The notes: generated from the sequence alone by a model not told the origin. A DNA stretch of 64,000 nucleotides from a virus (IMGVR_UViG_3300041809_000571:243841-307840); one strand, 5' to 3'; counted from the first letter of the stretch, positions 7,263 through 40,055 are shown. Made by a program: numbers and translations.

Positions 7263-7454
7263 CGTCTGCCTTATAATACTGAAAAACGTAGGTGTTTATT
7301 GCTTGCAACCTATACCAGTCTCCCGTGTGGGCGGCTATTTTACGTTCCTCCAAAATGGTGGACCACGGGGTATCTTCAAGGAGATTAAAGTTTTCTTGCG
7401 TCATGAAAGGCAGGAGACAGTCGGGGATTGTATCCACATATTGCATTGGATAGT

Positions 7455-7531
7455 TGGAGCGGGCGATGGGATTTGAACCCACGACATCCAGCTTGGGAAG
7501 CTGGCGTTCTACCGGACTGAACTACACCCGC
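7455..7531 (-). tRNA. tRNA-Gly(CCC), solitary, CCA encoded
   Basis: Hand-folded cloverleaf: acceptor GCGGGUG/CGCCCGC, D-stem GUUC/GAAC, anticodon arm CCAGC-UUCCCAA-GCUGG, T-arm GUGGG-UUCAAAU-CCCAU, U73, CCA. Confidence 0.7.
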
Positions 7532-7540
7532 ATATATAAG

Positions 7541-7572
7541 GGTTCGGTAGCCTGTCTATACAAACAGGCTAC
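7541..7572. other. 9-bp stem-loop (GTAGCCTGT / ACAGGCTAC) followed by TGTTTTG on the plus strand; possible terminator or processing hairpin between the vWA gene and tRNA-Gly
   Basis: Perfect 9-bp inverted repeat with an 8-nt loop, read directly from the sequence. Confidence 0.35.
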
Positions 7573-8204
7573 TGTTTTGCCGCCTTCCGTTGGGCGGAAG
7601 TGAACGACGCCTTGAGACCACGCCGGACGGCGCTGGTGTTGGCGCTTACGGCGAGGTACACTTCCTGAGTGGAAGCGGAGTTGTTGTTGTAGGTCATGGA
7701 GGTATCGGCGGAGATGTTGAACCCCTTGGCGGTCAGAACGGCGTCCTGATTGGCTCCCAAGAAGATGAAGGTCCAGTTGTACTTCTCTGTCTGGTGCTTC
7801 ACCATGTTCGCCACATTTTCCTTCGTGAATTCCTTGCTGGCGTTCTCATGACCATCCGTGAGGATGACGATGATGACTTTCTCCGGGCGCTCCTCTTCCG
7901 GCATCTTTTCCAGCCGCTCACCAACCTCGATAATCGTCCACCCCATGGCGTCATGCAGGGGGGTGTTCTCCCGTGGGGAGAAGGTGTCCTTGGTCAGATT
8001 TGGAACGTCCGCCAAAGGTGCGTCGATGACGATTTCGTGGGGGTCAATGGAGTCAAACTGGACCAACAGGAGATGGGCTTCGCCGGGCTGCTGCTTCTGC
8101 CCATTGATGAACTCGTTGAAGCCGTCGATGGTCGCATCCTTGACGATGCTCATGGAACCGGAACGGTCTAAAACTACGGCGATAAATGCGGAATCGGATT
8201 TCAT
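7569..8204 (-). CDS. von Willebrand factor type A (vWA) domain protein
   Basis: MIDAS-like DRSGSMS near the N-terminus and IIVILTDGHEN in the vWA fold. Strong RBS AAGGAGG upstream of the ATG at 8204. Confidence 0.7.
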   Translation of the reverse strand: MKSDSAFIAVVLDRSGSMSIVKDATIDGFNEFINGQKQQPGEAHLLLVQFDSIDPHEIVIDAPLADVPNLTKDTFSPRENTPLHDAMGWTIIEVGERLEKMPEEERPEKVIIVILTDGHENASKEFTKENVANMVKHQTEKYNWTFIFLGANQDAVLTAKGFNISADTSMTYNNNSASTQEVYLAVSANTSAVRRGLKASFTSAQRKAAKQ

Positions 8205-8955: not shown

Positions 8956-9696
8956 ATTGGTTCTCCTTTTGAGTTGGTGCGTGACTCACGTTCTAACGCC
9001 ACGGCGTAGTGAGCGCAAACAGAGGGAGTTGCCGCCCGCTCCAGTGGCTCGGTAAAAGAGTTACTAGCTCGGCTCCCATTGCTGAGTAAATCCGTGGTCA
9101 AGCAGCGCTGATTCGCATCACGCACCAAGCTATAATACTGAAAATTTTGTGGACCTATAAGCGGAGTTCTGTGCCTCTTGCGAGGTGACAACCATTCGTC
9201 TAGGGCGGCCATTACTGGACGCCTCAAGCTCTCAACCCGAGGGTTATAGCGAACCGAGCAGGTTCATCCCCTCCTATTCGAGATTGCTCCCCGTGAAGAT
9301 TGCCCGTTTCACCCGGACTTAACCGGCTCGTCTCTGTTGCTCTAATTGTCGCAGTATTGCTACTGCGCCGGGGCGTTACCCCGCACGGTGCTCTGTGTAG
9401 CTCCGACTTTCCTCTCCCCCTTGCGGGGCAGTAGTTGTCCAGTCCACAAACTTTTTCCAAACTTAGGGTTATTGGGAGCGAAGATTCCCTTGGAGCCATC
9501 CGGGTCAAGGGCCTTCAAGGTCAGATAATAACTCATGCTCCCAATGCTCACGCCGTCACCTTACACCCACAAGGTTCATAATCCTGTTGCCAGCCGGGCG
9601 GTATACTCTTCATCCACCCCTTGACCTTGACCCTTACGGTACATGGCTTTTTGTGCTTACGGTGTTTGCATTTAGAACATTTGGCGGAGGCCATAC

Positions 9697-9909
9697 TTAC
9701 CCACCCAACGGTTCAGCCCCTAAAGACATTGCAAGGGCTGTAATTTTATTAACCGTCAACGTCGCCAAGTCCAAAGTTTTACCCATCATCTCAATTTGGG
9801 CTTGAGTCCACGTGGATGCATCAACGGCGTCGTTATTCCAAGAGATTTGGAGTTTACCCCTTGCTGAAACTAATTGCTTACGAACCTCTAAGATTCCTTC
9901 TAACGTCAT
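9697..9909 (-). CDS. small hypothetical protein
   Basis: ATG at 9909 (MTLEGILEVRK...) lies about 25 nt downstream of the GGTGGTATTATATAG promoter-like motif. The listed GTG start at 9939 overlaps that motif. Confidence 0.3.
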   Translation of the reverse strand: MTLEGILEVRKQLVSARGKLQISWNNDAVDASTWTQAQIEMMGKTLDLATLTVNKITALAMSLGAEPLGG

Positions 9910-9971
9910 TTGAAACCCCCAAGACAAAAGTACCCACACTATATAATACCACCGAGAGTCAAAAATGATGG

Positions 9972-10640
9972 TTATTTAATTTCTCTTGCTTTTTCATAGA
10001 CCGCTCGAATGCTCGCAAAGCGTTCTCTGGTAGACAGGGTATGCGGGTGGTAGGTGATGATATCGTTTTCCGGGAGGGGCATCCTCCCCTCCGTCATACT
10101 ATAACGGTCGTCATGCTCCGTGGGGCAGACGCTATTGAACGATAATGTTGCCCATACCCACCAGTCCTCGACATTGTAACAACGGGTGTCCCTTGAACAA
10201 GGCGCTGAGGCGAGGAACTCCAACGCCCTCCTGCTAAGCCAGTACCCGGAGCCTCCATAGGGCTGGTTGTTTCCCCCCACTCCCCGTTGTCCTATATGGT
10301 CATGCCCCTCGAATCCCGAGCGGAGCAGACGGGGAACGCAGGCATAGGTGTCAACATCACATTTGAAAGCGTGGTCATAGCCGTGGGCTACCACCCACTG
10401 GTATGCAGCTTGGACCTTGGACGAGAGGTCCGCATACGTGTCGGAAACATCTAATGAGACCTCATCGTCATCTGCATTCTCTAGTCTAGGATTACCTAGA
10501 AAAAAGCGATAATCAACTGGGCACCCCATCAACCATGTTTCCCTGAGTTGCTGCTGCCAATGACGATGGGCATGGCAACTCATGATGGATATCAGCGGTT
10601 GCAACTGCTCACCCCCACCCTTAAGTGGTTTCCATACCAA
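9972..10640 (-). CDS. Putative Fringe-like (GT31-type) glycosyltransferase
   Basis: Acidic DxD-like ADDDEVSLDVSD plus PYGGSGYWLSRRALEFL resembling the Fringe GGAGFCISR motif. Weak, motif-level only. Confidence 0.4.
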   Translation of the reverse strand: MVWKPLKGGGEQLQPLISIMSCHAHRHWQQQLRETWLMGCPVDYRFFLGNPRLENADDDEVSLDVSDTYADLSSKVQAAYQWVVAHGYDHAFKCDVDTYACVPRLLRSGFEGHDHIGQRGVGGNNQPYGGSGYWLSRRALEFLASAPCSRDTRCYNVEDWWVWATLSFNSVCPTEHDDRYSMTEGRMPLPENDIITYHPHTLSTRERFASIRAVYEKAREIK

Positions 10641-10643
10641 ACC

Positions 10644-11607: not shown

Positions 11608-11961
11608 TGGTGGAGGCGACGGGGAGTTGAACCCCGTGTCCGAAAAGTGTCACAACAAGAAGACTACACGCTTATCCTGCTTCGTACTGCTCTTTGCCAT
11701 GACTCTGCTGAAACAGGCATATCAGAACCACGGTGCAAGCCTTCATCTCGCCGGATATCGGCTACATCCCCGGTCGCAGCCTCTCTATCGGCGCTTGGCC
11801 TCTACCCGACAGGCTAAAGCAGAGCAAGCGTGCCTAATCTAGCGATTAAGCAAATGCATATTGCGCTGTGGCAATTGCGTTGTTAACCCTTGTTACGGGC
11901 AGGGTAACCTCCCGGCGTGCCTTCCTGTAATGAGCGCTCCCGTCGAAACCAGAACGCCCCC
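11608..11961 (-). ncRNA. ssrA: tmRNA (ssrA-like transfer-messenger RNA), about 354 nt, CCA encoded
   Basis: Minus-strand 5' end GGGGGCGUUCUGGUUUCGACGGGA matches the tmRNA consensus GGGGnUGAUUCUGGAUUCGACGGG. The 3' end GGACACGGGGUUCAACUCCCCGUCGCCUCCACCA is a tRNA-Ala-like T-arm/acceptor with G3:U70, A73 and CCA. A candidate internal tag frame reads AAC AAC GCA AUU GCC ACA GCG CAA UAU GCA UUU GCU UAA (...NNAIATAQYAFA*). Confidence 0.8.
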
Positions 11962-11963
11962 AC

Positions 11964-11980
11964 ACTTACATAATACCACC
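11964..11980 (-). promoter_or_regulatory. Extended -10-like promoter motif GGTGGTATTATGTAAGT, 3 to 19 nt upstream of the tmRNA 5' end
   Basis: TGG-TATTAT sits immediately 5' of the mature tmRNA 5' end, and the same motif family recurs at other gene starts. Confidence 0.5.
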
Positions 11981-12185: not shown

Positions 12186-12260
12186 TTGGTAGCCCTGCCG
12201 GGACTCTAACCCGGTTCCGCTGGTTGAAAGCCAGCCATCCTAAACCATAGACGACAAGGC
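12186..12260 (-). tRNA. tRNA-Glu(UUC)
   Basis: Acceptor GGCCUUG/CAGGGCU (two G-U pairs), anticodon arm GCUGG-CUUUCAA-CCAGC, T-arm CCGGG-UUAGAGU-CCCGG, A73-CCA. The D-arm resembles E. coli tRNA-Glu. Confidence 0.6.
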
Positions 12261-12412
12261 CAGAAATTTGAGGCTGCGAAATATCCACGTTTGGGAGTAC
12301 AAGGACCGGTAGCAGCCTCGGTTTATCGGTACCCACTACGTGGCTCAGTTTAGACCGCCGTCCTGATACGACCACGATTGAAACCTGCGGTCAAGGTGTA
12401 TCGTGGCCTCGC

Positions 12413-12487
12413 TTGGAGCACCCGGAGAGAATCGAACTCCCGCATAAAGGGTTTGCAGCCCTCTCCCTTCCCACTTGGGTACGAGTG
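12413..12487 (-). tRNA. tRNA-Cys(GCA)
   Basis: Acceptor GCACUCG/CGGGUGC, anticodon arm GAGGG-CUGCAAA-CCCUU, T-arm GGGAG-UUCGAUU-CUCUC, U73 (Cys identity element), CCA. Confidence 0.7.
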
Positions 12488-12570
12488 CAAATTTGGCTCG
12501 CCTACCACTCTCTCAGTGGCTTTGAACCGTGCGGGCAGCTTTCACCGCCGCAGGCTATCTGGCTCGCAAT

Positions 12571-12645
12571 GTGGAGCACCTGAACGGAATCGAACCGTTG
12601 CATAGCTGTTTTGCAGACAGCCGCCTTTCCACTTGGCGACAGGTG
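12571..12645 (-). tRNA. tRNA-Cys(GCA), second divergent copy
   Basis: Acceptor GCACCUG/CAGGUGC, anticodon arm GCUGU-CUGCAAA-ACAGC, T-arm AACGG-UUCGAUU-CCGUU, U73-CCA. Confidence 0.7.
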
Positions 12646-12647
12646 CG

Positions 12648-12881
12648 TTATTCTTCTTCCTCAGCCGACTCCTTACTTAGGTCCACCGGCTGGCGAATCT
12701 TGGCAATCTTTCTTTCGGTGGATACGGAGAGTCTCACGTACTCCACTCGTGCCCAATGGACGGTGTGAACCGCCATCCACCCGACCACCACCCATTTAGA
12801 AAAGATGGTGAAAATCCTGTCGGGGTTGATGCTTATAAACCAAAGCACCACGCACATAAACCAATGCCACAAAGAAATCAT
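12648..12881 (-). CDS. small hydrophobic protein (2 predicted TM helices) embedded in the tRNA array
   Basis: 77-aa ORF MISLWHWFMCVVLWFISI...FTIFSKWVVVGWMAVHTV with a GGGAGG RBS 4 nt upstream. It sits exactly in the gap between tRNA-Cys and tRNA-Glu. Confidence 0.35.
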   Translation of the reverse strand: MISLWHWFMCVVLWFISINPDRIFTIFSKWVVVGWMAVHTVHWARVEYVRLSVSTERKIAKIRQPVDLSKESAEEEE

Positions 12882-12931
12882 CTAGCCTCCCGTCATGCAG
12901 TGTGTTCCCCCAAAGCATGGCGGGGGTGAAA

Positions 12932-13008
12932 CTGGTAGCCCCGGTGGGATTCAAACCCACGGTCTCCGCCTTGAGAGGGCGGCGTCCTTGGTCGCTAGAC
13001 GACGAGGC
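12932..13008 (-). tRNA. tRNA-Glu(CUC)
   Basis: Acceptor GGCCUCG/CGGGGCU, anticodon arm CCGCC-CUCUCAA-GGCGG, T-arm GUGGG-UUUGAAU-CCCAC, A73-CCA. Confidence 0.65.
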
Positions 13009-13079
13009 CATGTCTTAGCAGGGCACGACTGGCTACGATGAGTTTATGTCAGCGGGAAGCCTGATTCTGTGCCCTAAGT

Positions 13080-13155
13080 TTGGTGGACGGGAAGGGAGTT
13101 GAACCCTCAGTCTCTCGGGTGCGAGCCGAGCGCTTTCCCAGTTAAGCTACCTGCC
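13080..13155 (-). tRNA. tRNA-Ala(CGC)
   Basis: Acceptor GGGCAGG/CCCGUCC with G3:U70 (Ala identity) and one A5-C68 mismatch, D-stem GCUU/AAGC, anticodon arm CUCGG-CUCGCAC-CCGAG, T-arm GAGGG-UUCAACU-CCCUU, A73-CCA. Confidence 0.65.
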
Positions 13156-13160
13156 CAAAT

Positions 13161-13290
13161 GCAATCGTGGAGGGAATCGAACCCTCTCTCCTGTTGCAGC
13201 CTGCAAGCCGCTACAGTTCTTCCCCCCGTTACTTCCAAAGCCAGACAGCCTTCGGTCTTGCAGGACCTATTGCCATCTCGGGGGCTGAAA
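13161..13290 (-). ncRNA. Unresolved structured RNA with a perfect tRNA T-arm (GAGGG-UUCGAUU-CCCUC at 13169..13185) but no identifiable 7-bp acceptor partner or encoded CCA
   Basis: The T-arm is seen directly. Searches for a 5' acceptor strand complementary to CACGAUU failed, so this may be a type-II, intron-containing or degenerate tRNA. Confidence 0.3.
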
Positions 13291-13291
13291 C

Positions 13292-13367
13292 TTGGTGCGC
13301 CGAGCAGGACTCGAACCTGCGACCTCTTCCGTGTCAGGGAAGCGCTCTAACCACTGAGCTACCAGCG
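13292..13367 (-). tRNA. tRNA-Val(GAC)
   Basis: Acceptor GCGCUGG/UCGGCGC, D-arm GCUC-AGUGGUUA-GAGC, anticodon arm CUUCC-CUGACAC-GGAAG, T-arm GCAGG-UUCGAGU-CCUGC, A73-CCA. Confidence 0.7.
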
Positions 13368-13468
13368 CAAACGCATGGATTTCCCTACGGTCGCCTAGAC
13401 CCCGTCTGTTTATGTACTGCTTTGCGGGGCACTGCTACTGGTTAGCTCGCTACTAGGGCCATGCGTAA

Positions 13469-13546
13469 AATGGCGGTCCATACGGGATTTGAACCCGTGG
13501 TCTTCTCCGTGACAGGGAGACGAGGACTCCAGACTCCTCCAATAGA
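13469..13546 (-). tRNA. tRNA-Asp(GUC)
   Basis: Acceptor GGUCUAU/AUGGACC, D-stem GAGG/CCUC, anticodon arm UCUCC-CUGUCAC-GGAGA, T-arm ACGGG-UUCAAAU-CCCGU, G73 (Asp-type), CCA. Confidence 0.7.
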
Positions 13547-13552
13547 CCGAAA

Positions 13553-13631
13553 CTTGGCGGTGAGTACGGGATTTGAACCCGTGTTTCTACCGTGACAGGG
13601 TAGTGTCTTAGGCCGGGCTAGACCAACCCAC
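13553..13631 (-). tRNA. tRNA-Asp(GUC), second divergent copy in tandem
   Basis: Acceptor GGUGGGU/ACUCACC, anticodon arm CUACC-CUGUCAC-GGUAG, T-arm ACGGG-UUCAAAU-CCCGU, G73-CCA. Confidence 0.65.
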
Positions 13632-13723
13632 CGTAATCGGACCCTATTAACCCGCTCATGGGCGGAGGCTTTCGCCGGGGCGGCACATAGCACAAATACT
13701 ATCCCGTTCGTATGCCGCTAAAC

Positions 13724-13798
13724 TTGGTGGACCTAAAGGGAATCGGACCCTTGACCTCTCGGCTGCCGACCGAGCGCTCTCCCGCTGAGCTACAGGCC
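13724..13798 (-). tRNA. tRNA-Ala(GGC) (C at position 33)
   Basis: Acceptor GGGCCUG/UAGGUCC with G3:U70, D-arm GCUC-AGCGGGA-GAGC, anticodon arm CUCGG-UCGGCAG-CCGAG, T-arm AAGGG-UCCGAUU-CCCUU, A73-CCA. Confidence 0.55.
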
Positions 13799-13960
13799 CA
13801 CAAAAATTCGGGACAACCGGCTGGTTAGGCTAGTCATCCGCAGGTTCTACTGCTCGGGGTCCCTTTTCAGGGGAACCACCACAGTCCCCCTTACTGAGGG
13901 ACCCTGCTGGTAGAACCTCGCCACTCGTCAGCTTCGACAGCCCTTAGAGTGACTACAATC

Positions 13961-14034
13961 TTGGAGCGGGTGACGGGACTCGAACCCGTCTCTACAGCTT
14001 GGAAGGCTGCGGCACAACCTCTATACCACACCCG
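13961..14034 (-). tRNA. tRNA-Gly(UCC)
   Basis: Perfect acceptor GCGGGUG/CACCCGC, anticodon arm GCAGC-CUUCCAA-GCUGU, T-arm ACGGG-UUCGAGU-CCCGU, U73-CCA. Confidence 0.7.
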
Positions 14035-14125
14035 CAAATCTTGTGAGGACATTGACGCAGCCCCCTGTTTACGTTGACCGGCGTGTCAGAGCCGGTGTCC
14101 TGCCGCTGGACCTCAGCGGACTTAC

Positions 14126-14199
14126 TTGGTGGAGCTACGGGGATTTGAACCCCGATTCCTTGCGTGCAAGGCAAGTGTCCTGCCGTTAGACGATAGTCC
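14126..14199 (-). tRNA. tRNA-Ala(UGC)
   Basis: Acceptor GGGACUA/UAGCUCC with G3:U70 and one A4-C69 mismatch, anticodon arm CUUGC-CUUGCAC-GCAAG, T-arm CGGGG-UUCAAAU-CCCCG, A73-CCA. Confidence 0.55.
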
Positions 14200-14204
14200 C
14201 AAAC

Positions 14205-14279
14205 TTGGAGCGGGCGGTGGGGTTCGGACCCACGACCTCTTCCTTGGCAAGGAAGCATTCTACCACTGAACTACGCCCG
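14205..14279 (-). tRNA. tRNA-Gly(GCC)
   Basis: Perfect acceptor GCGGGCG/CGCCCGC, D-arm GUUC-AGUGGUA-GAAU, anticodon arm CUUCC-UUGCCAA-GGAAG, T-arm GUGGG-UCCGAAC-CCCAC, U73-CCA. The overall sequence closely resembles E. coli tRNA-Gly(GCC). Confidence 0.75.
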
Positions 14280-14351
14280 CAAACCGCCAAGTAGGTTCTT
14301 AACCAATATGCATCGGGTCTTGGACCGTTCCTGCATTACCCTTGGCGAAAT

Positions 14352-14430
14352 ATGGTGCGCCGTGAAGGAATTGGACCTTCGACCTCTCGCTTGTGGAGCG
14401 AGCGCTCTAAACCGGGCTGAGCTAACAGCG
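14352..14430 (-). tRNA. tRNA-Val(CAC) (C at position 33; long D-loop)
   Basis: Acceptor GCGCUGU/ACGGCGC, D-arm GCUC-AGCCCGGUUUA-GAGC, anticodon arm CUCGC-UCCACAA-GCGAG, T-arm GAAGG-UCCAAUU-CCUUC, A73-CCA. Confidence 0.55.
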
Positions 14431-14438
14431 CATCGAAC

Positions 14439-14513
14439 TTGGTACCCACTGAGAGAATCGAACTCCCGACATCCTCCTTGTAAGAGAGGCGGTCTTCCAC
14501 TGGCCTAAGCGGG
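14439..14513 (-). tRNA. tRNA-Val(UAC)
   Basis: Acceptor GCCCGCU/AGUGGGU (two G-U pairs), anticodon arm CCUCU-CUUACAA-GGAGG, T-arm GGGAG-UUCGAUU-CUCUC, A73-CCA. Confidence 0.6.
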
Positions 14514-14526
14514 CAAATCTTGTACT

Positions 14527-14558
14527 AAAAACAAAAAAGGCGGCTTTTCAGCCGCCTT
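14527..14558 (-). terminator. Intrinsic (rho-independent) terminator on the minus strand: GGCGGCU-GAAA-AGCCGCC followed by UUUUUUGUUUUU
   Basis: GC-rich 7-bp stem with a 4-nt loop and an 11-nt U-tract, read on the reverse complement. It lies 13 nt upstream of the first tRNA of the array. Confidence 0.7.
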
Positions 14559-14686
14559 CGGGGGTCCTTGCTTGGATTTTCTATCCAAGCCCTCCCGAAG
14601 GCGAGGTATCGCCTCCCTCACACACTGCGGCGACCGCTTCTATCAAGTCAACCGGGTTTGTGATGGCCGTTTTCATGTTCATCTCG

Positions 14687-14706
14687 CTTCTATATAATAC
14701 TGTCGG
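14687..14706 (-). promoter_or_regulatory. Promoter-like motif CAGTATTATATAG (minus strand), one of two recurring motifs between the NADAR-region genes and the tRNA array
   Basis: Member of the recurring AGTATTATA motif family listed in the findings. Confidence 0.4.
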
Positions 14707-14882
14707 TAGTTCAAAAACTTCAAAAATTTGCGATAGACTTGACGGCGGCTCACTTGCGGGCGTGCAACCAAAGCTGCCTTGGTCTCCCGGTTGGCTCCGG
14801 TCTCACATTCTTATCTGCGAGTCTCCCCTACCAAGTTCCCTTGGCTTCATCCGGGGTATCTTCGGCCCCGACTACGGAGCCT

Positions 14883-14902
14883 CCGTCAAGTCTCTCACTT
14901 AC
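14883..14902 (-). promoter_or_regulatory. Extended -10-like motif CGTGGTATAATGTAAGTGAG (minus strand)
   Basis: TGG-TATAAT, nearly identical to the motif upstream of the tmRNA and of the 9909 gene. Confidence 0.45.
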
Positions 14903-14917
14903 ATTATACCACGAAAT

Positions 14918-15229
14918 TCAGGATTTTGAGGAAAAAAGTTTTCCTTCCTTCGCCCGGATGACATGCTCTCGGAGGTCATTCACCCTGTAGACCCCATACA
15001 TCCACAAAACACCTTGAATAAACCCTATCCACCGATTGACCTTAGCCTCATCATAATGCTCGGCTTTAGTGCCGTTGGCGTAGTTGAACATCTCCTCCAC
15101 CATCCACGCAGCGTGACGGGCCTGCTCGATACCGGGGTGAGGGCTTTTCGGCTCACCCTCAAGCCGTTGGGGCAATATCCACAATCGTTGGAACTCGCTC
15201 CGGTAGAACTCTAACAATTGGTATTCCAC
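14918..15229 (-). CDS. hypothetical protein
   Basis: 103-aa ORF. Its N-terminal 70 nt overlap the NADAR gene, so the true start may be the internal Met (MVEEMF...) near 15103. Confidence 0.35.
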   Translation of the reverse strand: MEYQLLEFYRSEFQRLWILPQRLEGEPKSPHPGIEQARHAAWMVEEMFNYANGTKAEHYDEAKVNRWIGFIQGVLWMYGVYRVNDLREHVIRAKEGKLFSSKS

Positions 15230-16969: not shown

Positions 16970-16989
16970 CACTCTCAGTATACCACGTG
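16970..16989 (-). promoter_or_regulatory. Extended -10-like motif CACGTGGTATACTGAGAGTG (minus strand)
   Basis: TGG-TATACT, the same family as the tmRNA promoter, 10 to 25 nt upstream of the RBS and ATG. Confidence 0.45.
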
Positions 16990-17071
16990 CGGGATGGACG
17001 CCGAAGGAATTTTTAGCTTCCGGCAGCGTCCATCGGGGGGCGGGGTACGATAGGGGACTCTACTACGGGGC

Positions 17072-19290: not shown

Positions 19291-19541
19291 AGGACTCTCC
19301 TGTAGTTTAGCCTGCGGTCCTTCTGTCGGGATTTGGAACGTCTGCGGTCATACTTGCGGCTGTTTATGGGTCCGGTAGTGAAATTGCAAAATTACTTGCA
19401 AACTTCTCCGGGCACAAAAAAATCACAACACCAATGGGGATTTCGAGGAGTGGGGAAAATTGAAGTCAATAGTGGGTTTGAAGTAGTCATGAAAAATATT
19501 TTTTGGGTTCCGGTCACAAGCCCCGGAATAGAATAATACTG

Positions 19542-20012
19542 CTATTTCCAGCAATCACAAAACTCTCTATCGGTAGCAAGACTGTTGGGGTCTCGCCTAT
19601 CTTTCCAGCCTATACCCAAGCACTTTTTGCAGTGCTTATCCGGCTGAGGAACATGCGGGGTATCCCACGGATGGTCTTTGGGGTTGTAGTCGGGTGGTGT
19701 ATCTTCCACCATCCGCCGCCCGTTCCGGCGTACAAACCTAACTGTAAGAACTTGCTCTTTGTACCACTGGTCACACCCCTTGAAGTTGGGGTTAAACAAG
19801 CAGTGGATAGCCCGCCGAATCTCTCTCTGCGGAATGGGTTCATCATCATCCTCATTCCAATCCCCAACCCAAATTTTCCATTTAGCGGAGGGAGAGAATT
19901 TCTGCGTCGGAGAGGAAACAGGGGAATTCACCGGAGAGGAGACAGGAGGAGCAGGTTTCTCTTCCCCCAAAACTTTGAACGTGTTGCTAAGGTCAAACGG
20001 TTGCTGCGCCAT
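19542..20012 (-). CDS. hypothetical protein
   Basis: 156-aa ORF with Cys pairs near the C-terminus (CKKC...CDC). Confidence 0.4.
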   Translation of the reverse strand: MAQQPFDLSNTFKVLGEEKPAPPVSSPVNSPVSSPTQKFSPSAKWKIWVGDWNEDDDEPIPQREIRRAIHCLFNPNFKGCDQWYKEQVLTVRFVRRNGRRMVEDTPPDYNPKDHPWDTPHVPQPDKHCKKCLGIGWKDRRDPNSLATDREFCDCWK

Positions 20013-20684: not shown

Positions 20685-22280
20685 CTAAAGTGTATCAGCC
20701 ATCTCGGAATCAATGTTTCTTACCTCCTGAATCACCTGCTTCAACTCCGTGGTCAGGGGGCGTTGTTCTGAGGCGGCAGCACCCTTACGGACGAATGCAC
20801 CTGTCCAAGGAGATATTACCGCAATTTGCGCCAAAGGTTGTGCTCCGACACGCTTTTTTACGCATCCAATTTCAATTTCGTTGCGTTCCGGTGCCTTCAT
20901 TTCGATGTCCGACCATACCGTGAGGATGACATCCATGTCATCTTTCAGTTCGGAAAAAGTGCGGATAGCATCCAGTGTGTAGTGCCCGATTCCCTCTTTG
21001 AAGTCCCCCTTCATAGCTTCCTTGTAGGACTCCTTGGTAATTTGCACGGGACTCATGACGATGATGCCCCGGCTCTCGTCAAACTGGCGGGTGAACTTCT
21101 GGATGCGGTGAATGAGTTCCTTCATCCCTTGGTCTTTCCACCGGGGGTCACCGGGAATCTCCAGCCGGGTGATGTAGTCCAAAAGCAGGAAGTCATAGTG
21201 GTTCTTACTGTGATAGAGCTTGAGCCAGTCTTCAATGGAATCCCAGTCACGATTGGGGAACTCTTTGACTTCGAGCTTGCCCGGCAGGTTCCTTCCATTT
21301 TCGATGTCGAAGCAGATGTCCTGCATGTGCCGGATGTGTTCCGAAGTGACGTTCCGGTTTTCCCACTCTTTGGTGGGAGGGAGGACAAGCTCACCATAGT
21401 CCGGGTGAGAGGAATGCAAGTAAGTCATCACGTCCCAAATTCGCTTGGACGTGTGCTCAGTGGAAACATATAGACCGTTGAATCCTTGGCGTAACCAGTT
21501 GTAGACTATGTAGTTGGCAAGTGTGGTTTTGCCATCATTTGCCTGCCCGACGATGCCGATGAAGCGGTTGTCTGTCTGCTTGCCAATGACCACGCACTTG
21601 TCAACGTTGTCCAGACCAAGCAGCATCCGACCGTTTTCATTCTGCTCGTTCATCAGGTTGGCAAAACCCTCCCGGACTACCTGCATGTTCTGGTGCAGGA
21701 ATCCATCTACAGGCGGTGTATCGTCGGTGTAGTCTTCCAACCACTTCATGCGCAGCCAACGCATGGCAGGAGCGGGACCCCGCTCTTCTTTCTTTTCCCC
21801 CTTCTCAAACCACTTGAAGGAGTCCATACCGTTGGCAATTTTGGAGTATTGGTTAGCAGCGACAGAGTGCCAAGCTCCTCGGACCTTGGAGAAGGCATTC
21901 TCCAGAACCATGAGGGATTCCAGCCCCCGGACAGATTCCGTGGGGGGATTCCATGTGGTCAAGGTATCAAGCTGTTGCAGGGTTTCCGTGGTTTCATCTT
22001 TTTCACCATCCTCACCCCCACGAGAGAACTCCTTGATGTGGTCGGGGTTGGTGACGATGTACCCCTTAACGTCCTGCGGACCCACGGGCAGGCGTTTGAA
22101 GCGGGTGATGTATTTCCATATAGCCTTCATGGTTCTGCTGGTAACCACTTCATCGCTATCTGGCATGTAGTCGATGGTGAAGGAGTACTTGATGGTCCAC
22201 ATCAATTTCTTCTTGTTTTGTAGGACAAATGGGTACAAATCCTGCGTGCAAAGACGCCGGGCAAGCTCAGTAAGATACAT
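20685..22280 (-). CDS. DnaB-family replicative helicase (SF4)
   Basis: Walker A GQANDGKTTLA, Walker B-like FLLLDYITRL and RecA-like IIVMSPVQITKES match DnaB-type motifs. Confidence 0.7.
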   Translation of the reverse strand: MYLTELARRLCTQDLYPFVLQNKKKLMWTIKYSFTIDYMPDSDEVVTSRTMKAIWKYITRFKRLPVGPQDVKGYIVTNPDHIKEFSRGGEDGEKDETTETLQQLDTLTTWNPPTESVRGLESLMVLENAFSKVRGAWHSVAANQYSKIANGMDSFKWFEKGEKKEERGPAPAMRWLRMKWLEDYTDDTPPVDGFLHQNMQVVREGFANLMNEQNENGRMLLGLDNVDKCVVIGKQTDNRFIGIVGQANDGKTTLANYIVYNWLRQGFNGLYVSTEHTSKRIWDVMTYLHSSHPDYGELVLPPTKEWENRNVTSEHIRHMQDICFDIENGRNLPGKLEVKEFPNRDWDSIEDWLKLYHSKNHYDFLLLDYITRLEIPGDPRWKDQGMKELIHRIQKFTRQFDESRGIIVMSPVQITKESYKEAMKGDFKEGIGHYTLDAIRTFSELKDDMDVILTVWSDIEMKAPERNEIEIGCVKKRVGAQPLAQIAVISPWTGAFVRKGAAASEQRPLTTELKQVIQEVRNIDSEMADTL

Positions 22281-22381
22281 GGAAACCCTTCTCGGTGGTG
22301 TGACTGCTGATTTTCATTGCGTATATTCTAAATACCATTTCGATAGTGATTCTACGAAAGATGGCTTCATAGGCCGTTCAT

Positions 22382-24822: not shown

Positions 24823-24905
24823 AAACTCACGCCGTTTGGGGAGATTTTTTAATGACTGGTGATTTTTACATATTCGACTTTTCTCCTAACTATCAGGGAG
24901 GAACT

Positions 24906-25508
24906 ATGGAAGATACAGTGAAGTCAGCCGGACCCACCCCCAAGACCCTCGAAGACGTAATAGCGGGCCTCCGGGGATTCGGGATTGAAGAGAATATGGA
25001 GATTGTCACGTTTCGGTCTCCCAAAGGAGAAGAAGTGCATCTCCGCCTCGTCAACCTCCCGGTTGATGCCGAGGTAAAGGCTATCATCGCCTGCGAAGAA
25101 CTTAAGGGGTACGCTTGGGTGCAGAACCTTCGAGTGGAGATATTGTCCCGCTCCATCTGCTGGATTGATGGACATGACCTGCTGACCCTGACCCCCGAGC
25201 AACGCATCGTCAAGGACCCCACGGACGGAAAACAGAAGGACATTCAGGTGGTGTTGCGGAACATCATCCGGGATAGTTGGGGACGGGAGATTACCTCCAC
25301 CCTGTGGAAGATTCTGATGGTGCATTCTGACAAGATTGAGAAGCGGCTGCAAGGAGAGTTTCCCGACTCCATGATTATGACCGATGTGGAGCGCCGGTTC
25401 ACTGAGTCGGTAATGCGGGAAATCGAGGCATCCAACAACGTGGTAATCGCCGACACCATTGAAAAGGTCTTTTCGGATAACGAACCGCAAGAAGAGAAAA
25501 AGGCGTAA
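24906..25508 (+). CDS. hypothetical protein
   Basis: Start MEDTVKSAG follows CAGGGAGGAACT. The upstream part of the listed ORF (from 24783) lacks an RBS. Confidence 0.4.
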   Translation: MEDTVKSAGPTPKTLEDVIAGLRGFGIEENMEIVTFRSPKGEEVHLRLVNLPVDAEVKAIIACEELKGYAWVQNLRVEILSRSICWIDGHDLLTLTPEQRIVKDPTDGKQKDIQVVLRNIIRDSWGREITSTLWKILMVHSDKIEKRLQGEFPDSMIMTDVERRFTESVMREIEASNNVVIADTIEKVFSDNEPQEEKKA

Positions 25509-36981: not shown

Positions 36982-39900
36982 TGGGAGCACCTTTCACATC
37001 AGCGCTGCAACAAGCCCAAACGTGGCCCATCAAGGCCCAAGGGGCGGTACAAAGGTTCAAACCCTTCGGTGACCCGAAGATTGAGAACTTCTACCATAAG
37101 TCTCTTGAAGATGGGCGGCAATTGGAGAAGTCTGTCACCGATGCCAACAACTGGATGATGGAAAAACGGGATATCATCCAAAAGCACATTCAACAGGCAT
37201 TCAACCAAGTTAAGTTGGCGACGGATGGTAAGCTGGACAACCCACCTCGGGCGATAAAATATGGCTATGACATCATCACTTTCATGCAGCAAGTCAATCA
37301 GTTTCAGAGTGAGATTATTGGCCTCGTCAGTGCGGCTACCAAGAACATCGGTATCCTTAGTAGCATGGAGCAGAACATCCTCCAGATGGTACAGGCAAAC
37401 CTCAACGCCATAGCCTCCATGCTTCACGATATTTGCAACTGGGCATTACCAGACCTACCCGCCATCCCCAACCTGTTCTCCGATACCATTTGGAAGTGGA
37501 ACGGGTTTAAGTTCTTTCCCCTAGCGAGCTTTATTCCGCACCCGAACTTCGATACCAACTTTGCTTTTGGGCAATGCCAATTGCACGTTCCAAATGTCAA
37601 CATCCTGCGGAATTTCCCCACCACTAATCAAACCTACAACGGGGTTACATTTGGTACACCACTCTTTGTTCCACCTCTTGGTGGTGTCATACCGAACACG
37701 GGAGTCAATCTTTCTGACCCAGTGTTCATCCAGCAGATGAAGAACACAACCACGGTTCCCGTCTACACGCCGGACCAGAGCTACCCCAATTACTTCAACC
37801 CTCAATCATCAATGCAGGGTAGTTTGCCCAACCCGGCGACGGTCATCAGCAACTATCAGATGCCCCCGGCGACCTATGCGGCAAACATTGTCAGCACCGT
37901 GCCCGCCCTAGCGGGTGATGTTATCGAGCCGACCGACCCGGATTACAGCAACCCCAACCTTCCCGTGCGGCAAGCGACCCTTCGTCAGGACCTCACTCGT
38001 TATGTGACTTTGGGGAATGTGGTGGACAGCAACTTTGACCCCAATCTTACCAGCGCATGGGTATTCTATCTTAGCAGTACTCGGAGTGGGCGTGCCGGTC
38101 AGTGGTTGACCAACTTCGAGGCGGCGTATCAAACCTTTGTTCAGCCGTCCGTGGATTACCTTGCCGCCAATCCCATTCCATGGAATCAAGTATTGCCCGG
38201 AGATGTGCTCAATTCCGGCCCGGCAACCTTGCCTCTCATCGTTTCGTTGATGCCCGCAGGCTCGCCCCCGGTACTCACGGAGACACAGGGTAACACCCTT
38301 TGGAGATTGTCTTATGTCGAAGCCGCCGTGCTCGGATATGTTAGAAACACTACGTGGGATGGGTATGCGGATAATAACTACGTTGGGAGTTTCACCCAAA
38401 CGGATTTGGATTATCAGTCCATCCCCACATCCAGTGCTGCTGGAACCACCACAATTTTACTGGGAGAAGGGGAAGCTGACTACCCTGTTTCCTGTACATT
38501 CCCTACTTCAATCGGTAAAAATCTCCTGTCTGTCATTTCGTTAGCGGATACTCGTATCCAGCTTGACACGAAATACCAGAGTGTCCACCCGCAGTATCGC
38601 TACACCTACGACCAGTTCGCTATTGCCAAGCAGGTGGACCGCTTCACGCAGTTCTGGCGGGACTTCAATGCCAACCTCCAGACACTCCTCGTGCAGGACC
38701 CCTACATCATCGGATTTGTGTGTGCCTACGTTGCCAGCTTAGACTCTGCTATTGACCCACTGGGTAACCCAACTGATTACAACACCGTGCTGACCGACGC
38801 CAGCACCCGCAGCCGGACATGGTCTCCGGGTTTCCCGCTTCTCCCCATTCCGACCGCCCCTATCGTTACCTACTCTCAGAGTGCTTTGCAAGACCCCAAT
38901 CAGACCGGCTGGTACGGCACAACGTTGGACCCGGTTGCCTATCTGTCCCGGCCTGACATACAGGGGCAGACCATCCCCGTACAGATGGCGATGCTCTCTT
39001 GCAATCAGTCCGCCGCCAGCCTCATGGCATATAAGGCAAACATTCAGCAGGCATTCTCCGATGCCATTACCACGGTGCAACAGCAGATTCAGGGAGCACA
39101 GAACTTTGGATTTCAGGTGGAGTCAAACGCTGCTTACACGCTCGTCCCCACAGGAGTCTATGGGGCTGAGGTGGTGTTTGACCAAGTGGACTTCGACCTG
39201 ACGGGGTACGTCTCCCTCAGCCCACCCGTTTATACCATCACAGCGCCGGGTGCTTACGCCGTCACGGGGCAGCTTAATTGGGAGGCGGGGGACGCCGGGA
39301 TTAGAACAGTCACCGTTTACGTCCAATATGCCTCTGGGTCTCCTCCGACGCCGGTTGCCATTATTACCGAGTCTTCACCCCTCAATCAAACGGGTCCATT
39401 CATCCTGCCGTTCAGCGGGACCTTCAATTTTAACGTGGGGGATATCTTGACGGTGGTTGCTACCCACGGATTGTCCACTCCCCAGCAGGTGGGACCGGGC
39501 AGCCTGTTCAGTGCTGTCATCTATCAGAACACACCGGACAATACCCCGGTTGCCCCGCCCTCGCCCACCTCGGGAGGAACTCAGACATTGACGGCGGATG
39601 CCGATATGGCAATGCTGACGGCGGTCTACGTGGACGGCTCGGGAGGAGTCGTACCGGTTGACCCCACGGGTGTGACGCCGGGGCCGTCTCTGTCCCCGCC
39701 GTTCTTCTACGATGTGTACCCGTATATCGACGGTGTAACTTTAGCTGATGTCACCACCGGTAACACGGTGACTATCGCTGTGGGCTATGGTTCGGCATTC
39801 CAAATCCCCGGTGCAAACTTCATTCCCGGAGGACTTCTATACGCTGGACCCGGAGGCGTGCTATCTCAAGATTTTAATGATGTTATACTATCTGACTGCA

Positions 39901-40016
39901 AGTGGATAATCGTTGCCGGACGGGCGCTGGACAGTCAGACTTTCCTTTATGAACCTCATATCCCCACAAGGACAATCTTCGCCGACCCCCCGGCTAGCCC
40001 CCCGTTTTCATTTTAG
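36981..40016 (+). CDS. putative virion structural protein (1011 aa)
   Basis: Long ORF with a start/stop overlap to the upstream gene. Confidence 0.45.
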   Translation: MGAPFTSALQQAQTWPIKAQGAVQRFKPFGDPKIENFYHKSLEDGRQLEKSVTDANNWMMEKRDIIQKHIQQAFNQVKLATDGKLDNPPRAIKYGYDIITFMQQVNQFQSEIIGLVSAATKNIGILSSMEQNILQMVQANLNAIASMLHDICNWALPDLPAIPNLFSDTIWKWNGFKFFPLASFIPHPNFDTNFAFGQCQLHVPNVNILRNFPTTNQTYNGVTFGTPLFVPPLGGVIPNTGVNLSDPVFIQQMKNTTTVPVYTPDQSYPNYFNPQSSMQGSLPNPATVISNYQMPPATYAANIVSTVPALAGDVIEPTDPDYSNPNLPVRQATLRQDLTRYVTLGNVVDSNFDPNLTSAWVFYLSSTRSGRAGQWLTNFEAAYQTFVQPSVDYLAANPIPWNQVLPGDVLNSGPATLPLIVSLMPAGSPPVLTETQGNTLWRLSYVEAAVLGYVRNTTWDGYADNNYVGSFTQTDLDYQSIPTSSAAGTTTILLGEGEADYPVSCTFPTSIGKNLLSVISLADTRIQLDTKYQSVHPQYRYTYDQFAIAKQVDRFTQFWRDFNANLQTLLVQDPYIIGFVCAYVASLDSAIDPLGNPTDYNTVLTDASTRSRTWSPGFPLLPIPTAPIVTYSQSALQDPNQTGWYGTTLDPVAYLSRPDIQGQTIPVQMAMLSCNQSAASLMAYKANIQQAFSDAITTVQQQIQGAQNFGFQVESNAAYTLVPTGVYGAEVVFDQVDFDLTGYVSLSPPVYTITAPGAYAVTGQLNWEAGDAGIRTVTVYVQYASGSPPTPVAIITESSPLNQTGPFILPFSGTFNFNVGDILTVVATHGLSTPQQVGPGSLFSAVIYQNTPDNTPVAPPSPTSGGTQTLTADADMAMLTAVYVDGSGGVVPVDPTGVTPGPSLSPPFFYDVYPYIDGVTLADVTTGNTVTIAVGYGSAFQIPGANFIPGGLLYAGPGGVLSQDFNDVILSDCKWIIVAGRALDSQTFLYEPHIPTRTIFADPPASPPFSF

Positions 40017-40041
40017 ACAAATAGCCTGATTGTTTTAACTT

Positions 40042-40055
40042 TTTGCCCGAGATGC
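40042..40055 (+). promoter_or_regulatory. Promoter-like motif ATGCAGTATTGTCC (plus-strand version of the CAGTATTAT family) upstream of the lysis cassette
   Basis: About 107 nt upstream of the RlpA-like gene, in the first sizeable intergenic gap of the structural block. Confidence 0.3.

What the first reader, a model, noticed from the sequence alone, without database searches (positions are those of the whole stretch)
7266..40055. Recurrent promoter-like motif family (GTGGTATAMT... and CAGTATTATA...) immediately upstream of the tmRNA and many genes, mostly with minus-strand polarity
A conserved extended -10-type element (TGG-TATAAT, TATTAT or TATACT, followed by GTAAGTG or GAGAGTGG) lies 5 to 30 nt upstream of:
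- the tmRNA 5' end (11964..11980)
- the 9909 gene (9935..9953)
- the Cys-rich gene (16970..16989)
- the membrane protein gene (24805..24822)
- the tRNA-array leader (14883..14902)
A second variant, CAGTATTATA or TATAATACTGAAAA (identical 14-mer at 7271..7285 and 9131..9145), occurs at 7268..7285, 9128..9144, 14687..14706 and 19529..19546, and as a plus-strand form at 40042..40055. The lack of a conserved -35 suggests recognition by a phage-modified or phage-encoded sigma, analogous to T4 late TATAAATA promoters. This is a candidate regulon map.
Basis: seen in the sequence. Interest (0 to 1): 0.6.

Follow-up and report, generated by a model that had tools for sequence, protein, structure and literature searches.

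The report
Phage −10-type promoter motif family
A short AT-rich signal (G-TAT-W-M-T) recurs just upstream of most gene and RNA-gene starts in this roughly 364-kb uncultivated phage and is conserved in its relatives; it is best read as an ordinary "−10 only / extended −10" promoter of the kind the bacterial housekeeping RNA polymerase recognises, so the gene-start map is useful but the mechanism is not new.

Summary
The pattern RGTATWMT lies 10 times on the transcribed strand in the 4.8 kb of non-coding DNA of the window, against 0.5 expected. Pieces of it are the most enriched 6- to 8-mers in intergenic DNA. It always points the way the downstream gene points.

It sits 8 nt upstream of the tmRNA 5' end and, in several genes, 5–6 nt upstream of the ATG, a leaderless layout. 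It is invariant at orthologous positions in phage lineages whose proteins are only 45–70% identical.

It also predicted sites out of sample. It appeared in 7 of 10 new intergenic gaps in 16 kb of the same contig outside the window, on whichever strand the genes lie.

There is no −35 element. The 'TGG' class (GTGGTATWMTGTAAGTG) fits the classical TRTGnTATAAT extended −10. The same 17-mer occurs in unrelated phages, where it pairs with TTGACA at 16–18 bp more often than chance.

The promoter reading is therefore supported. The analogy with T4 late promoters and a phage sigma is not: TATAAATA is absent, and the genes served are mostly non-structural or RNA genes. The polymerase cannot be identified from sequence alone.

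In passing: the phage carries a full-length RNase P RNA, and so do many other huge-phage contigs.

The parts
498..506 (-). CAGTATTAT promoter-like site (hexamer 498..503), 35 nt upstream of the ATG (462) of a large glycosyltransferase/methyltransferase gene that runs off the window start
7272..7285 (-). TTTTCAGTATTATA site (hexamer 7273..7278), 10 nt upstream of the ATG (7262) of the metallophosphoesterase gene that heads the operon with the collagen-like tail-fibre genes
   Evidence: The L011 ortholog reads CAATATTAT.
9131..9144 (-). TTTTCAGTATTATA site (hexamer 9132..9137), directly after the 3' end of the RNase P RNA and upstream of the DUF6847 gene (ATG 8957)
   Evidence: It is 100% conserved in L011 although an HNH gene is inserted upstream there.
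9937..9953 (-). GGTGGTATTATATAGTG site (hexamer 9943..9948), 33 nt upstream of the ATG (9909) of a 70-aa ORF that is followed by the RNase P RNA
   Evidence: The site-plus-ORF cassette is absent in the L011 lineage.
11963..11980 (-). GGTGGTATTATGTAAGTG site (hexamer 11970..11975); the tmRNA 5' end (11961) lies 8 nt after the hexamer
   Evidence: It is not conserved in L011, where the tmRNA follows tRNAs.
14694..14710 (-). ACTACCGACAGTATTAT(ATAG) site (hexamer 14694..14699), upstream of a 33-codon ORF, a strong terminator and the tRNA array
   Evidence: Alignment A1: ACTACCG..GTATTATATAG is invariant in 4 lineages. A paralogous site lies before the second tRNA array (L098 17378).
14896..14912 (-). 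GTGGTATAATGTAAGTG site (hexamer 14903..14908), upstream of a candidate structured RNA of about 170 nt
   Evidence: The ortholog in L011 (2757) heads a small ORF instead.
16970..16986 (-). GTGGTATACTGAGAGTG site (hexamer 16977..16982), then GGAGG and an ATG (16960) 16 nt after the hexamer. It heads the operon of the Cys-rich protein, an HslV-like peptidase and a NADAR protein.
   Evidence: Alignment A2: GTATA.T is invariant in 4 lineages.
19533..19541 (-). CAGTATTAT site (hexamer 19533..19538), 34 nt upstream of a conserved 32-codon ORF and the class II ribonucleotide reductase gene
   Evidence: Alignment A7: L005 has GGTATTAT at the aligned position.
24806..24821 (-). AGGTATACTAGAAGTG site (hexamer 24813..24818), then GGAGG and an ATG (24796). 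It lies in a divergent junction, where a promoter is required.
   Evidence: Alignment A3: GTATA.T plus TGGAGG is invariant in 4 lineages although mean column identity is 46%.
40055..40063 (+). CAGTATTGT variant (hexamer 40058..40063), about 100 nt upstream of the TTG start (40162) of an RlpA-like lytic transglycosylase gene
   Evidence: The motif travels with the gene in L021 (GGTATTCT) and L020 (CAGTATTGA).
22329..22336 (-). GGTATTTA variant (candidate site), about 45 nt upstream of the helicase-like ATPase gene (ATG 22280). A TAGAAT / TATAGT / TAGTAT hexamer overlaps it in three lineages.
   Evidence: Alignment A8; single occurrence in the window
11608..11961 (-). tmRNA gene served by site 11963..11980
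   Evidence: Rfam RF00023, 124 bits
9142..9450 (-). RNase P RNA (class A), flanked by sites 9937..9953 (upstream) and 9131..9144 (at its 3' end)
   Evidence: Rfam RF00010, 191 bits, full length
12187..14514 (-). Array of 14 tRNA genes downstream of sites 14896..14912 and 14694..14710

Best explanation
The motif is the −10 region of the promoters that head most transcription units of this huge phage. Across 18 sites in about 80 kb of one genome the consensus is g-[C/T]-[A/G]-G-TAT-[T/A]-[A/C]-T-[A/G]-t-A-a.

The hexamer TATWMT keeps the T(−12), A(−11) and T(−7) positions that region 2 of sigma-70-family factors recognises.

There are two main sub-classes:
- About half of the sites read (G)TGG-TATWMT. 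This is the classical extended −10 ('−16 region', TRTGnTATAAT), which lets the housekeeping-sigma holoenzyme open a promoter without any −35 contact.
- The other half read CAG-TATTAT. These are −10-only promoters.

Transcription would start 6–8 nt after the hexamer. That gives three layouts: RNAs that begin at or next to the mature 5' end (tmRNA), mRNAs whose leader is little more than a Shine-Dalgarno sequence (hexamer-N16-ATG), and leaderless mRNAs (hexamer-N5/6-ATG).

The polymerase I think most likely is the host core enzyme with its primary sigma. It may be helped by a phage protein that disables −35 recognition, as in T4 AsiA or P23-45 gp39.

What is shown: existence, enrichment, orientation, position and evolutionary conservation. 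What is inferred: that the sites fire, where transcription starts, and which holoenzyme reads them. I put about 0.85 on 'these are promoters' and about 0.6 on 'read by the host primary-sigma holoenzyme'.
For: 1. Enrichment: 10 sites against 0.53 expected on the transcribed strand of non-coding DNA. The motif's pieces are the top intergenic k-mers.

2. Orientation always follows the downstream gene. It is minus in the minus-strand block and plus in the plus-strand region beyond the window.

3. Out-of-sample prediction on the same 364-kb contig:
- 2 of 3 new gaps in L025 carry the motif.
- 5 of 7 new gaps in L098 carry it.
- 5 strict hits fall in about 1.6 kb of new non-coding DNA, against 4 in about 29 kb of coding strands.

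4. Phylogenetic footprints. The motif is invariant while its flanks diverge in alignments A1, A2, A3, A7 and A8. It travels with the RlpA-like gene when that gene has moved. TGTATACT-N6-ATG sites occur in a lineage that is 45-47% identical in protein.

5. Position:
- 8 nt upstream of the tmRNA 5' end.
- A sharp hexamer-N5/6-ATG class in four lineages.
- A hexamer-N16-ATG class with GGAGG.
- Presence at divergent junctions, where a promoter must exist: window 24813..24821, and the L052 478/562 pair.

6. The class A 17-mer GTGGTATWMTGTAAGTG occurs in 29 distinct contexts in unrelated viral contigs. Six of them have at least 5/6 of TTGACA at a 16-18 bp spacing, against 0.44 expected. This sequence is therefore what ordinary sigma-70-type holoenzymes read.

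7. Extended −10 promoters without −35 are an established way for phages to use host RNA polymerase (P23-45 late promoter, T4 middle promoters; PMC4124052).

8. No sigma or RNA polymerase domain was found in the window proteins or in the annotated flanks.
Against: - There are no transcription start data.
- The host is unknown, so its own promoter consensus cannot be compared.
- The base adjacent to the hexamer (G at −13) is invariant in the 18 sites, and ATAG-like bases follow the hexamer. This is tighter than typical host sigma-70 promoters and recalls phage-specific single-element promoters. Part of this is selection by the search pattern.
- The CAG class has no TG and no −35. By E. coli standards it would be a weak promoter for an unaided holoenzyme.
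- About 280 kb of the genome was not readable and could encode a sigma or a polymerase.
- Some sites are not conserved: the tmRNA site is missing in L011, and 40635 is not conserved.
- Several gaps lack the motif: upstream of 11066 and 8204, and L025 14999-15034.
Confidence: 0.6

Rival explanations
1. The motif is a single-element promoter read by a phage-encoded sigma factor that lacks region 4 (as phiEco32 gp36 reads tAATGTAtA, or T4 gp55 reads TATAAATA). Alternatively, it is read by the host sigma only after remodelling by a phage appropriator.
For: - There is no −35.
- The core is unusually tight, including G(−13) and the ATAG that follows.
- The core is conserved across lineages that are only 45-47% identical in protein.
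- Relatives read TGTATA(CT), which overlaps the phiEco32 gp36 consensus tAATGTAtA; that promoter has its start site 6-8 bp downstream and no −35 because gp36 lacks region 4 (PMC8948821).
- A subset of sites has an AAAAyC(C) tract 13-20 nt upstream of the hexamer, reminiscent of an activator box.
Against: - No sigma-like gene was found in about 80 kb of this genome or in the relatives' flanks.
- The T4 late motif is absent.
- The genes served are not the late structural block.
- The TGG class is indistinguishable from ordinary extended −10 promoters that carry TTGACA in unrelated phages.
Confidence: 0.2
2. The motif is the promoter of a phage-encoded multisubunit RNA polymerase of the phiKZ/AR9 type. 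Their virion-polymerase early promoters end in ...TATATTAT-N6-G(+1).
For: - The AR9 early consensus AAATATATATTAT-(6N)-G ends in the same TATTAT-N6-G as several sites here (PMC5312081).
- The genome is huge (364 kb).
- Many large proteins in the window have no family match.
Against: - phiKZ-type early promoters are long AT-rich elements. Here the bases from −17 to −13 are G/C-rich (35% AT) and only about 8-11 nt are conserved.
- No RNA polymerase beta or beta' domain was found in any protein examined.
- No PHROG family shared with phiKZ-like phages turned up in the large proteins.
Confidence: 0.08
3. The motif is not a transcription start signal. It is instead an RNA-level or other DNA-level signal: an RNase E-type processing site between cistrons, an operator for a repressor, or a homing-endonuclease or recombination target.
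For: - It is strand-specific and intergenic, as a processing site would be.
- It abuts the 3' end of the RNase P RNA and lies next to RNA genes that need processing.
- GTATAC is palindromic.
- Homing endonucleases are frequent in the relatives.
Against: - It occurs at divergent junctions, where no upstream transcript in that orientation exists.
- The fixed 5-6 nt and 16 nt spacings to start codons and the 8 nt spacing to the tmRNA 5' end fit a start site, not a cleavage site.
- Only the TATACT subset is palindromic.
- The invariant positions are exactly those of a −10 hexamer.
- The same 17-mer pairs with TTGACA elsewhere.
Confidence: 0.05

Closest known systems
Extended −10 ('−16 region', TRTGnTATAAT / TGnTATAAT) promoters of the primary sigma factor, as used by phages without a −35 element (T4 middle promoters; Thermus phage P23-45 late promoter)
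   Same: - The hexamer is TATAAT-like, with T(−12), A(−11) and T(−7).
- TG lies one base upstream of the hexamer in the TGG class.
- There is no −35.
- It is used by a phage to drive its own genes (PMC4124052).
- The same 17-mer works with TTGACA in other phages.
   Different: - Half of the sites (CAG class) have no TG.
- G directly before the hexamer is invariant.
- No MotA-box-like element is established; only a weak AAAAyC tract appears in a subset.
- No AsiA/gp39-like protein has been identified.
- Activity is untested.
Single-element promoters of phage-encoded sigma factors (phiEco32 gp36: tAATGTAtA; T4 gp55: TATAAATA)
   Same: One short conserved AT-rich element, no −35, and a start site 6-8 bp downstream (PMC8948821).
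   Different: - The sequence differs: TATAAATA is absent, and only TGTATA is shared with the gp36 motif, in relatives.
- No phage sigma gene was seen.
- The genes served are not a middle or late structural class.
Virion-RNA-polymerase early promoters of phiKZ-like jumbo phages (AR9: AAATATATATTAT-N6-G)
   Same: TATTAT-N6-G core; a highly recurrent motif in a giant phage (PMC5312081).
   Different: - The upstream half is G/C-rich here, not AT-rich.
- The conserved stretch is shorter.
- No phage RNA polymerase genes were seen.
−10-only promoters of leaderless mRNAs (as described in Actinobacteria and Deinococcus-Thermus; from my own knowledge)
   Same: TANNNT followed by 5-7 nt and then the start codon, in several sites of four lineages.
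   Different: The host phylum is unknown, and leaderless translation in this system is untested.

Membership tests
sigma-70-family −10 / extended −10 promoter | Hexamer of TATAAT type with T at −12, A at −11 and T at −7 | tested here: met
   18 of 18 sites in this genome read TAT[T/A/C][A/C/G]T. Part of this is imposed by the search pattern. The orthologous alignments keep these bases independently.
sigma-70-family −10 / extended −10 promoter | TG at −15/−14, one base upstream of the hexamer (the extended −10) | tested here: inconclusive
   Present in 7 of 18 sites (the TGG class). The other sites read CAG, GAG or AGG.
sigma-70-family −10 / extended −10 promoter | Located upstream of transcription units, on the transcribed strand, and enriched in intergenic DNA | tested here: met
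sigma-70-family −10 / extended −10 promoter | Transcription start 5-9 nt downstream of the hexamer | not testable with these tools
   Only indirect evidence: the tmRNA 5' end lies 8 nt after the hexamer, and ATG lies 5-6 nt after the hexamer in leaderless-type sites.
sigma-70-family −10 / extended −10 promoter | Recognised by the primary-sigma holoenzyme | not testable with these tools
   Indirect evidence: the class A 17-mer is paired with TTGACA at 16-18 bp in 6 of 29 unrelated viral contexts, against 0.44 expected.
canonical −35/−10 sigma-70 promoter | TTGACA-like hexamer 16-18 bp upstream of the −10 | tested here: not met
   There is no information content upstream of −16. The consensus scan gives 15 sites against 12.9 expected, and only 2 motif sites have a weak −35.
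T4-type late promoter (gp55) | TATAAATA at −10 | tested here: not met
   1 occurrence against 0.77 expected, inside a gene on the other strand.
T4-type late promoter (gp55) | Serves late (virion structural) genes | tested here: not met
   The sites precede the tmRNA, the tRNA leaders, and the RNR, helicase, NADAR-operon and small genes. The 38-kb structural block has one variant site.
phiKZ/AR9 virion-RNAP early promoter | Extended, highly conserved AT-rich element of about 13 nt | tested here: not met
   Positions −17 to −13 are 35% AT, and conservation is limited to about −16 to −3.
phiKZ/AR9 virion-RNAP early promoter | Phage encodes split beta/beta'-like RNA polymerase subunits | tested here: inconclusive
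   None were found in about 80 kb of the genome plus the relatives' flanks. About 280 kb was not examined.
phiEco32 gp36-type single-element promoter | Consensus tAATGTAtA and a phage sigma lacking region 4 | tested here: inconclusive
   Only TGTATA is shared, and only in relatives. No sigma gene was seen in the parts examined.

The most novel reading that the evidence does not exclude
The motif is the dedicated single-element promoter of a phage-encoded sigma or RNA polymerase, or of a host sigma captured by a phage appropriator. That factor would be conserved across a clade of 340–365-kb phages. It would co-ordinate a phage-borne RNA-maturation and translation-rescue module (two tRNA arrays, tmRNA, RNase P RNA) together with a set of leaderless mRNAs.
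Probability: 0.2. Interest if true: 0.55.

Novelty: new member of a known kind. Interest (0 to 1): 0.3.

Why it matters
The motif gives a ready-made map of transcription units for an uncultivated phage of about 364 kb and its relatives. It places likely start sites for the tmRNA, the tRNA-array leaders and many small ORFs, and it flags a set of probably leaderless genes.

It also suggests that this phage depends on a sigma-70-type holoenzyme working in a −35-independent mode. That is the mode phages such as T4 and P23-45 exploit to take RNA polymerase away from host genes. The mechanism is textbook. The value lies in annotation and in designing a 5'-end mapping experiment, not in a new principle.

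Tried and rejected
- **GenBank phages:** megablast of 13 kb and blastn of the RNase P region found nothing.
- **Relatives via the 140-aa protein:** the search for loci found none.
- **Host assignment:**
  - The VWA protein's best named homologs are Terriglobales/Terracidiphilus, but only at 50-57% identity.
  - The cluster look-up gave no names.
  - The one genome scan returned only 41-44% Firmicutes/Synergistaceae hits.
  - The host stays unknown.
- **Canonical −35:** rejected.
- **ACTACCG as a general upstream element:** not enriched overall, 8 against 5.7 expected. It does recur at three leader sites.
- **ATAAAC / CATAAC..ACTGTC as a second (late?) promoter motif:** it is conserved upstream of the first structural gene in relatives but does not recur in the window.
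- **Site 40635 CAGTATTAA:** not conserved in relatives.
- **Site 8427 CAGTATTAG:** probably the end of a small ORF.
- **Sigma or RNA polymerase genes:** looked for in the window, the flanks and two relatives' loci; none found. This is inconclusive because most of the genome is out of reach.
- **Exact look-up of the 843-aa NUDIX protein:** failed.
- **Rfam at relaxed threshold on 14500..14960:** gave only chance-level hits.

Full report
**What the window is.**
The 64-kb window comes from a huge uncultivated phage. The helicase-like ATPase at 20685..22280(−) sits on a 364,142-bp contig. Relatives with 45-70% protein identity lie on contigs of 339, 338, 155, 128 and 78 kb.

Genes from 1 to 24,796 are mostly on the minus strand:
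- collagen-like tail fibres;
- a metallophosphoesterase and a VWA protein;
- tRNA-Gly;
- an RNase P RNA at 9142..9450 and a tmRNA at 11608..11961;
- 14 tRNAs;
- a NADAR/HslV-like operon, a class II RNR and the ATPase.

From 24,852 onward a tightly packed plus-strand structural block follows. It includes SLT and RlpA-like lysins, baseplate J and many large proteins of unknown function.

I found three small corrections:
- The identical 14-mers are at 7272..7285 and 9131..9144.
- The plus-strand site is CAGTATTGT at 40055..40063, not 40042..40055.

One exact site was missed: CAGTATTAT at 498..506.

The counts exceed chance:
- CAGTATTAT: 5 hits against 0.30 expected.
- GGTATWMT: 13 against 4.8.
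- GGTATWMTNNNNGTG: 4 against 0.09.

I then built a gene map and checked it against gene calls on the same contig and on relatives. Non-coding DNA is 4,827 nt, or 7.5% of the window. The pattern RGTATWMT falls there 10 times on the transcribed strand. Dinucleotide shuffles of those same segments give 0.53 (maximum 4 in 2,000), and the pattern falls once on the other strand.

An unbiased k-mer screen of oriented intergenic DNA ranks TATTAT, GTATTAT, CAGTATT, GTGGTAT and AGTATTAT first.

**Independent tests.**

*Out-of-sample prediction.* I fetched 9.4 kb beyond the window start (L025) and 6.5 kb beyond its end (L098) from the same contig.
- In L025, two of three new gaps carry the motif on the coding strand. 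They are CAGTATTAT-5 nt-ATG, and GTGGTATACTGTAAGTGAGGAG... before a DEAD/ResIII helicase.
- In L098 the genes are on the plus strand and so is the motif, in five gaps:
  - GAGTATTGT-5 nt-ATG;
  - GTGGTATACTGTAAGTG;
  - ACTACCGGTGGTATTATATAGAAGGAGG ahead of a second tRNA array;
  - CAGTATTAT;
  - TTTTCAGTATCAT.

The 'minus polarity' is therefore only gene orientation.

*Phylogenetic footprints.* In alignments of orthologous intergenic regions from four lineages the motif columns are invariant while mean column identity is 46-64%:
- ACTACCG..GTATTATATAG (A1).
- GTATA.T (A2).
- GTATA.T plus TGGAGG (A3).
- GGTATTAT in L005 (A7).
- GGTATTTA (A8).

The plus-strand site travels with the RlpA-like gene even where that gene has moved 2 kb. 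A lineage only 45-47% identical in protein uses TGTATACT-N6-ATG, including a back-to-back divergent pair.

**Anatomy.**
The 18 sites in this genome give the consensus g-[C/T]-[A/G]-G-TAT-[T/A]-[A/C]-T-[A/G]-t-A-a, followed by a G-rich stretch. Nothing is conserved at −35. A subset has an AAAAyC(C) tract 13-20 nt upstream of the hexamer.

Three sub-classes are visible:
- (G)TGGTATWMT followed by GTAAGTG or RRRAGTG. This class precedes the tmRNA, a candidate structured RNA, the NADAR operon, a membrane protein, the helicase and a 78-aa gene.
- (TTTT)CAGTATTAT.
- ACTACCGnnnGTATTATATAGAAG before both tRNA arrays.

The spacing to the downstream feature is informative:
- 8 nt to the tmRNA 5' end.
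- Exactly 16 nt to the ATG, with GGAGG in between, in several class A sites.
- 5-6 nt to the ATG in eight sites of four lineages. This is the geometry of leaderless mRNAs.

These spacings put the start site 6-8 nt after the hexamer, as expected for a −10 element.

**Which polymerase?**
The TGG class matches the extended −10 or '−16 region' consensus TRTGnTATAAT. Such promoters do not need a −35. Phages such as T4 (middle promoters) and P23-45 (late promoter) exploit this while disabling −35 recognition (PMC4124052).

I searched IMG/VR for the 17-mer GTGGTATWMTGTAAGTG. It occurs in 70 stretches, which collapse to 29 distinct contexts from unrelated phages with 32-54% GC. In six of these a match of at least 5/6 to TTGACA lies 16-18 bp upstream, against 0.44 expected. 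This exact sequence is therefore the −10 half of ordinary sigma-70-type promoters elsewhere.

The T4 late motif is absent. The phiKZ/AR9 virion-polymerase motif is long and AT-rich (PMC5312081), whereas here the bases before the hexamer are G/C-rich. The phiEco32 gp36 motif tAATGTAtA (PMC8948821) shares only TGTATA.

No sigma or RNA polymerase domain was found in any protein of the window, the flanks or two further loci of relatives. About 280 kb of the genome could not be read.

I therefore favour the host primary-sigma holoenzyme, possibly with a phage-encoded modifier. I keep a phage sigma at about 0.2 and a phage polymerase at about 0.08.

A processing-site or operator reading is unlikely. 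The motif sits at divergent junctions and keeps start-site geometry.

**Limits.**
- There are no RNA data, and the host is unknown.
- The invariance of G(−13), T(−12), A(−11) and T(−7) is partly imposed by the search pattern.
- Some sites are specific to one lineage.
- Several gaps have no recognisable site.
- What drives the 38-kb structural block remains unclear. A motif conserved upstream of its first gene in relatives is absent in the window.

**Verdict.**
The finding is a correct and statistically solid observation of a promoter family. The ordinary explanation, −35-independent sigma-70-type promoters, fits better. It is a new member of a known kind and is useful for annotation.

The most unusual thing in these coordinates is something else. 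The phage carries a full-length RNase P RNA next to its tmRNA and tRNA arrays. A quick scan showed the same in many other huge-phage contigs. Five literature searches and a term search within the P finder paper (PMC7191817) found no description of this.

Noticed in passing
window 9142..9450 (−); loci L042, L045, L052, L061, L072, L077, L084, L091, L094, L095 and others: The phage encodes a compact but full-length class A RNase P RNA (309 nt; RF00010, 191 bits) with the P4 core intact. It lies between the tmRNA/tRNA arrays and tRNA-Gly. An exact-pattern scan of IMG/VR with the P4 motif hit 65 viral contigs. Rfam confirmed RNase P RNA in 14 of 16 loci taken from contigs of 100-463 kb, nearly always inside tRNA arrays. 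No match was found in GenBank phages by blastn, and five literature searches plus a term search within the P finder paper found no report of a phage-encoded RNase P RNA.
   Followed up: partly
window 14712..14897 (−): Downstream of site 14903..14911 lies a candidate structured RNA of about 170 nt. A long closing helix (AGACTTGACGG / CCGTCAAGTCT) encloses several hairpins and is followed by T-runs. The minimum free energy is −73 kcal/mol, z = −4.1 against shuffles. There is no Rfam family, and the element is not present at the orthologous place in L011.
   Followed up: partly
window 14536..14682 (−): A conserved 33-codon ORF (MNMKTAITNPVDLIEAVAAVCEGGDTS...) is followed by a strong intrinsic terminator (14536..14559) only about 20 nt before the first tRNA. 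The tRNA array would need read-through or an unrecognised promoter.
   Followed up: no
window about 16990..17040 (−); alignment A2: A conserved hairpin (GATGGACGC ... GCGTCCATC) lies immediately upstream of site 16977..16985. L007 shows compensatory changes (ATGGGTGCC ... GGCACCCAG). There is no T-run after it, and its function is unknown.
   Followed up: no
window 19295..19498 (−); alignment A7: A conserved 32-codon ORF ending in VC(K/R) and a leader of about 110 nt (80% identical to L005) lie directly upstream of the class II RNR gene. The leader contains ACTACCGGACCCATAAACAGCCGCA. In L005 a 166-aa gene is inserted between the leader and the RNR gene.
   Followed up: no
L025 17336; L098 14647; L011 12316; L024 9235; L052 478, 562, 1858; L022 11810; window 7273..7278: Many sites have the start codon 5-6 nt (10 nt at window 7278) after the hexamer. 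This implies leaderless mRNAs in this phage clade.
   Followed up: partly
L098 18071..19055 (same contig, about 4-5 kb beyond the window end): A second tRNA array (Ile x2, Thr x4, Gln x2) is preceded by a near-copy of the promoter before the first array (ACTACCGGTGGTATTATATAGAAGG).
   Followed up: partly
L080 5070..5488 (IMGVR_UViG_3300009709_000001, 385 kb): A GOLLD RNA (RF02032, 212 bits) lies beside tRNAs in another huge viral contig that was picked up by the RNase P pattern scan.
   Followed up: no
window 9696..9972 against L011 7950..8110: The promoter 9943..9951 plus its 70-aa ORF behaves as a cassette. It is present in the window but missing in the close relative L011. In L011 gene order around the tmRNA and RNase P RNA is rearranged, and HNH, GIY-YIG and intein genes interrupt synteny.
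   Followed up: partly
window 4076..4099: The window and the 364-kb contig differ by a 54-nt length change inside the collagen-repeat tail-fibre gene. This is either repeat-number variation or an assembly ambiguity.
   Followed up: no
window 11608..11961 (−): ARAGORN did not report the tmRNA that Rfam finds at 124 bits.
   Followed up: no
L005 about 7560..7600, L006, L007, L002 (upstream of the ortholog of window gene 24852..25508): A conserved CA(C/G)ATAA(A/C)C.ACTG(T/C)C element lies about 25-35 nt upstream of the first structural-block gene in four relatives. It is absent at that place in the window and does not recur in the window.
   Followed up: partly
sites 14903..14911, L025 18094, L011 2757, L021 9049, L052 478/562/1858: A subset of sites has an A-tract element, AAAAyC(C), ending 13-14 nt upstream of the hexamer (about −31 to −25). 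This could be an activator or UP-like element. The sites are too few and not independent enough to judge.
   Followed up: partly
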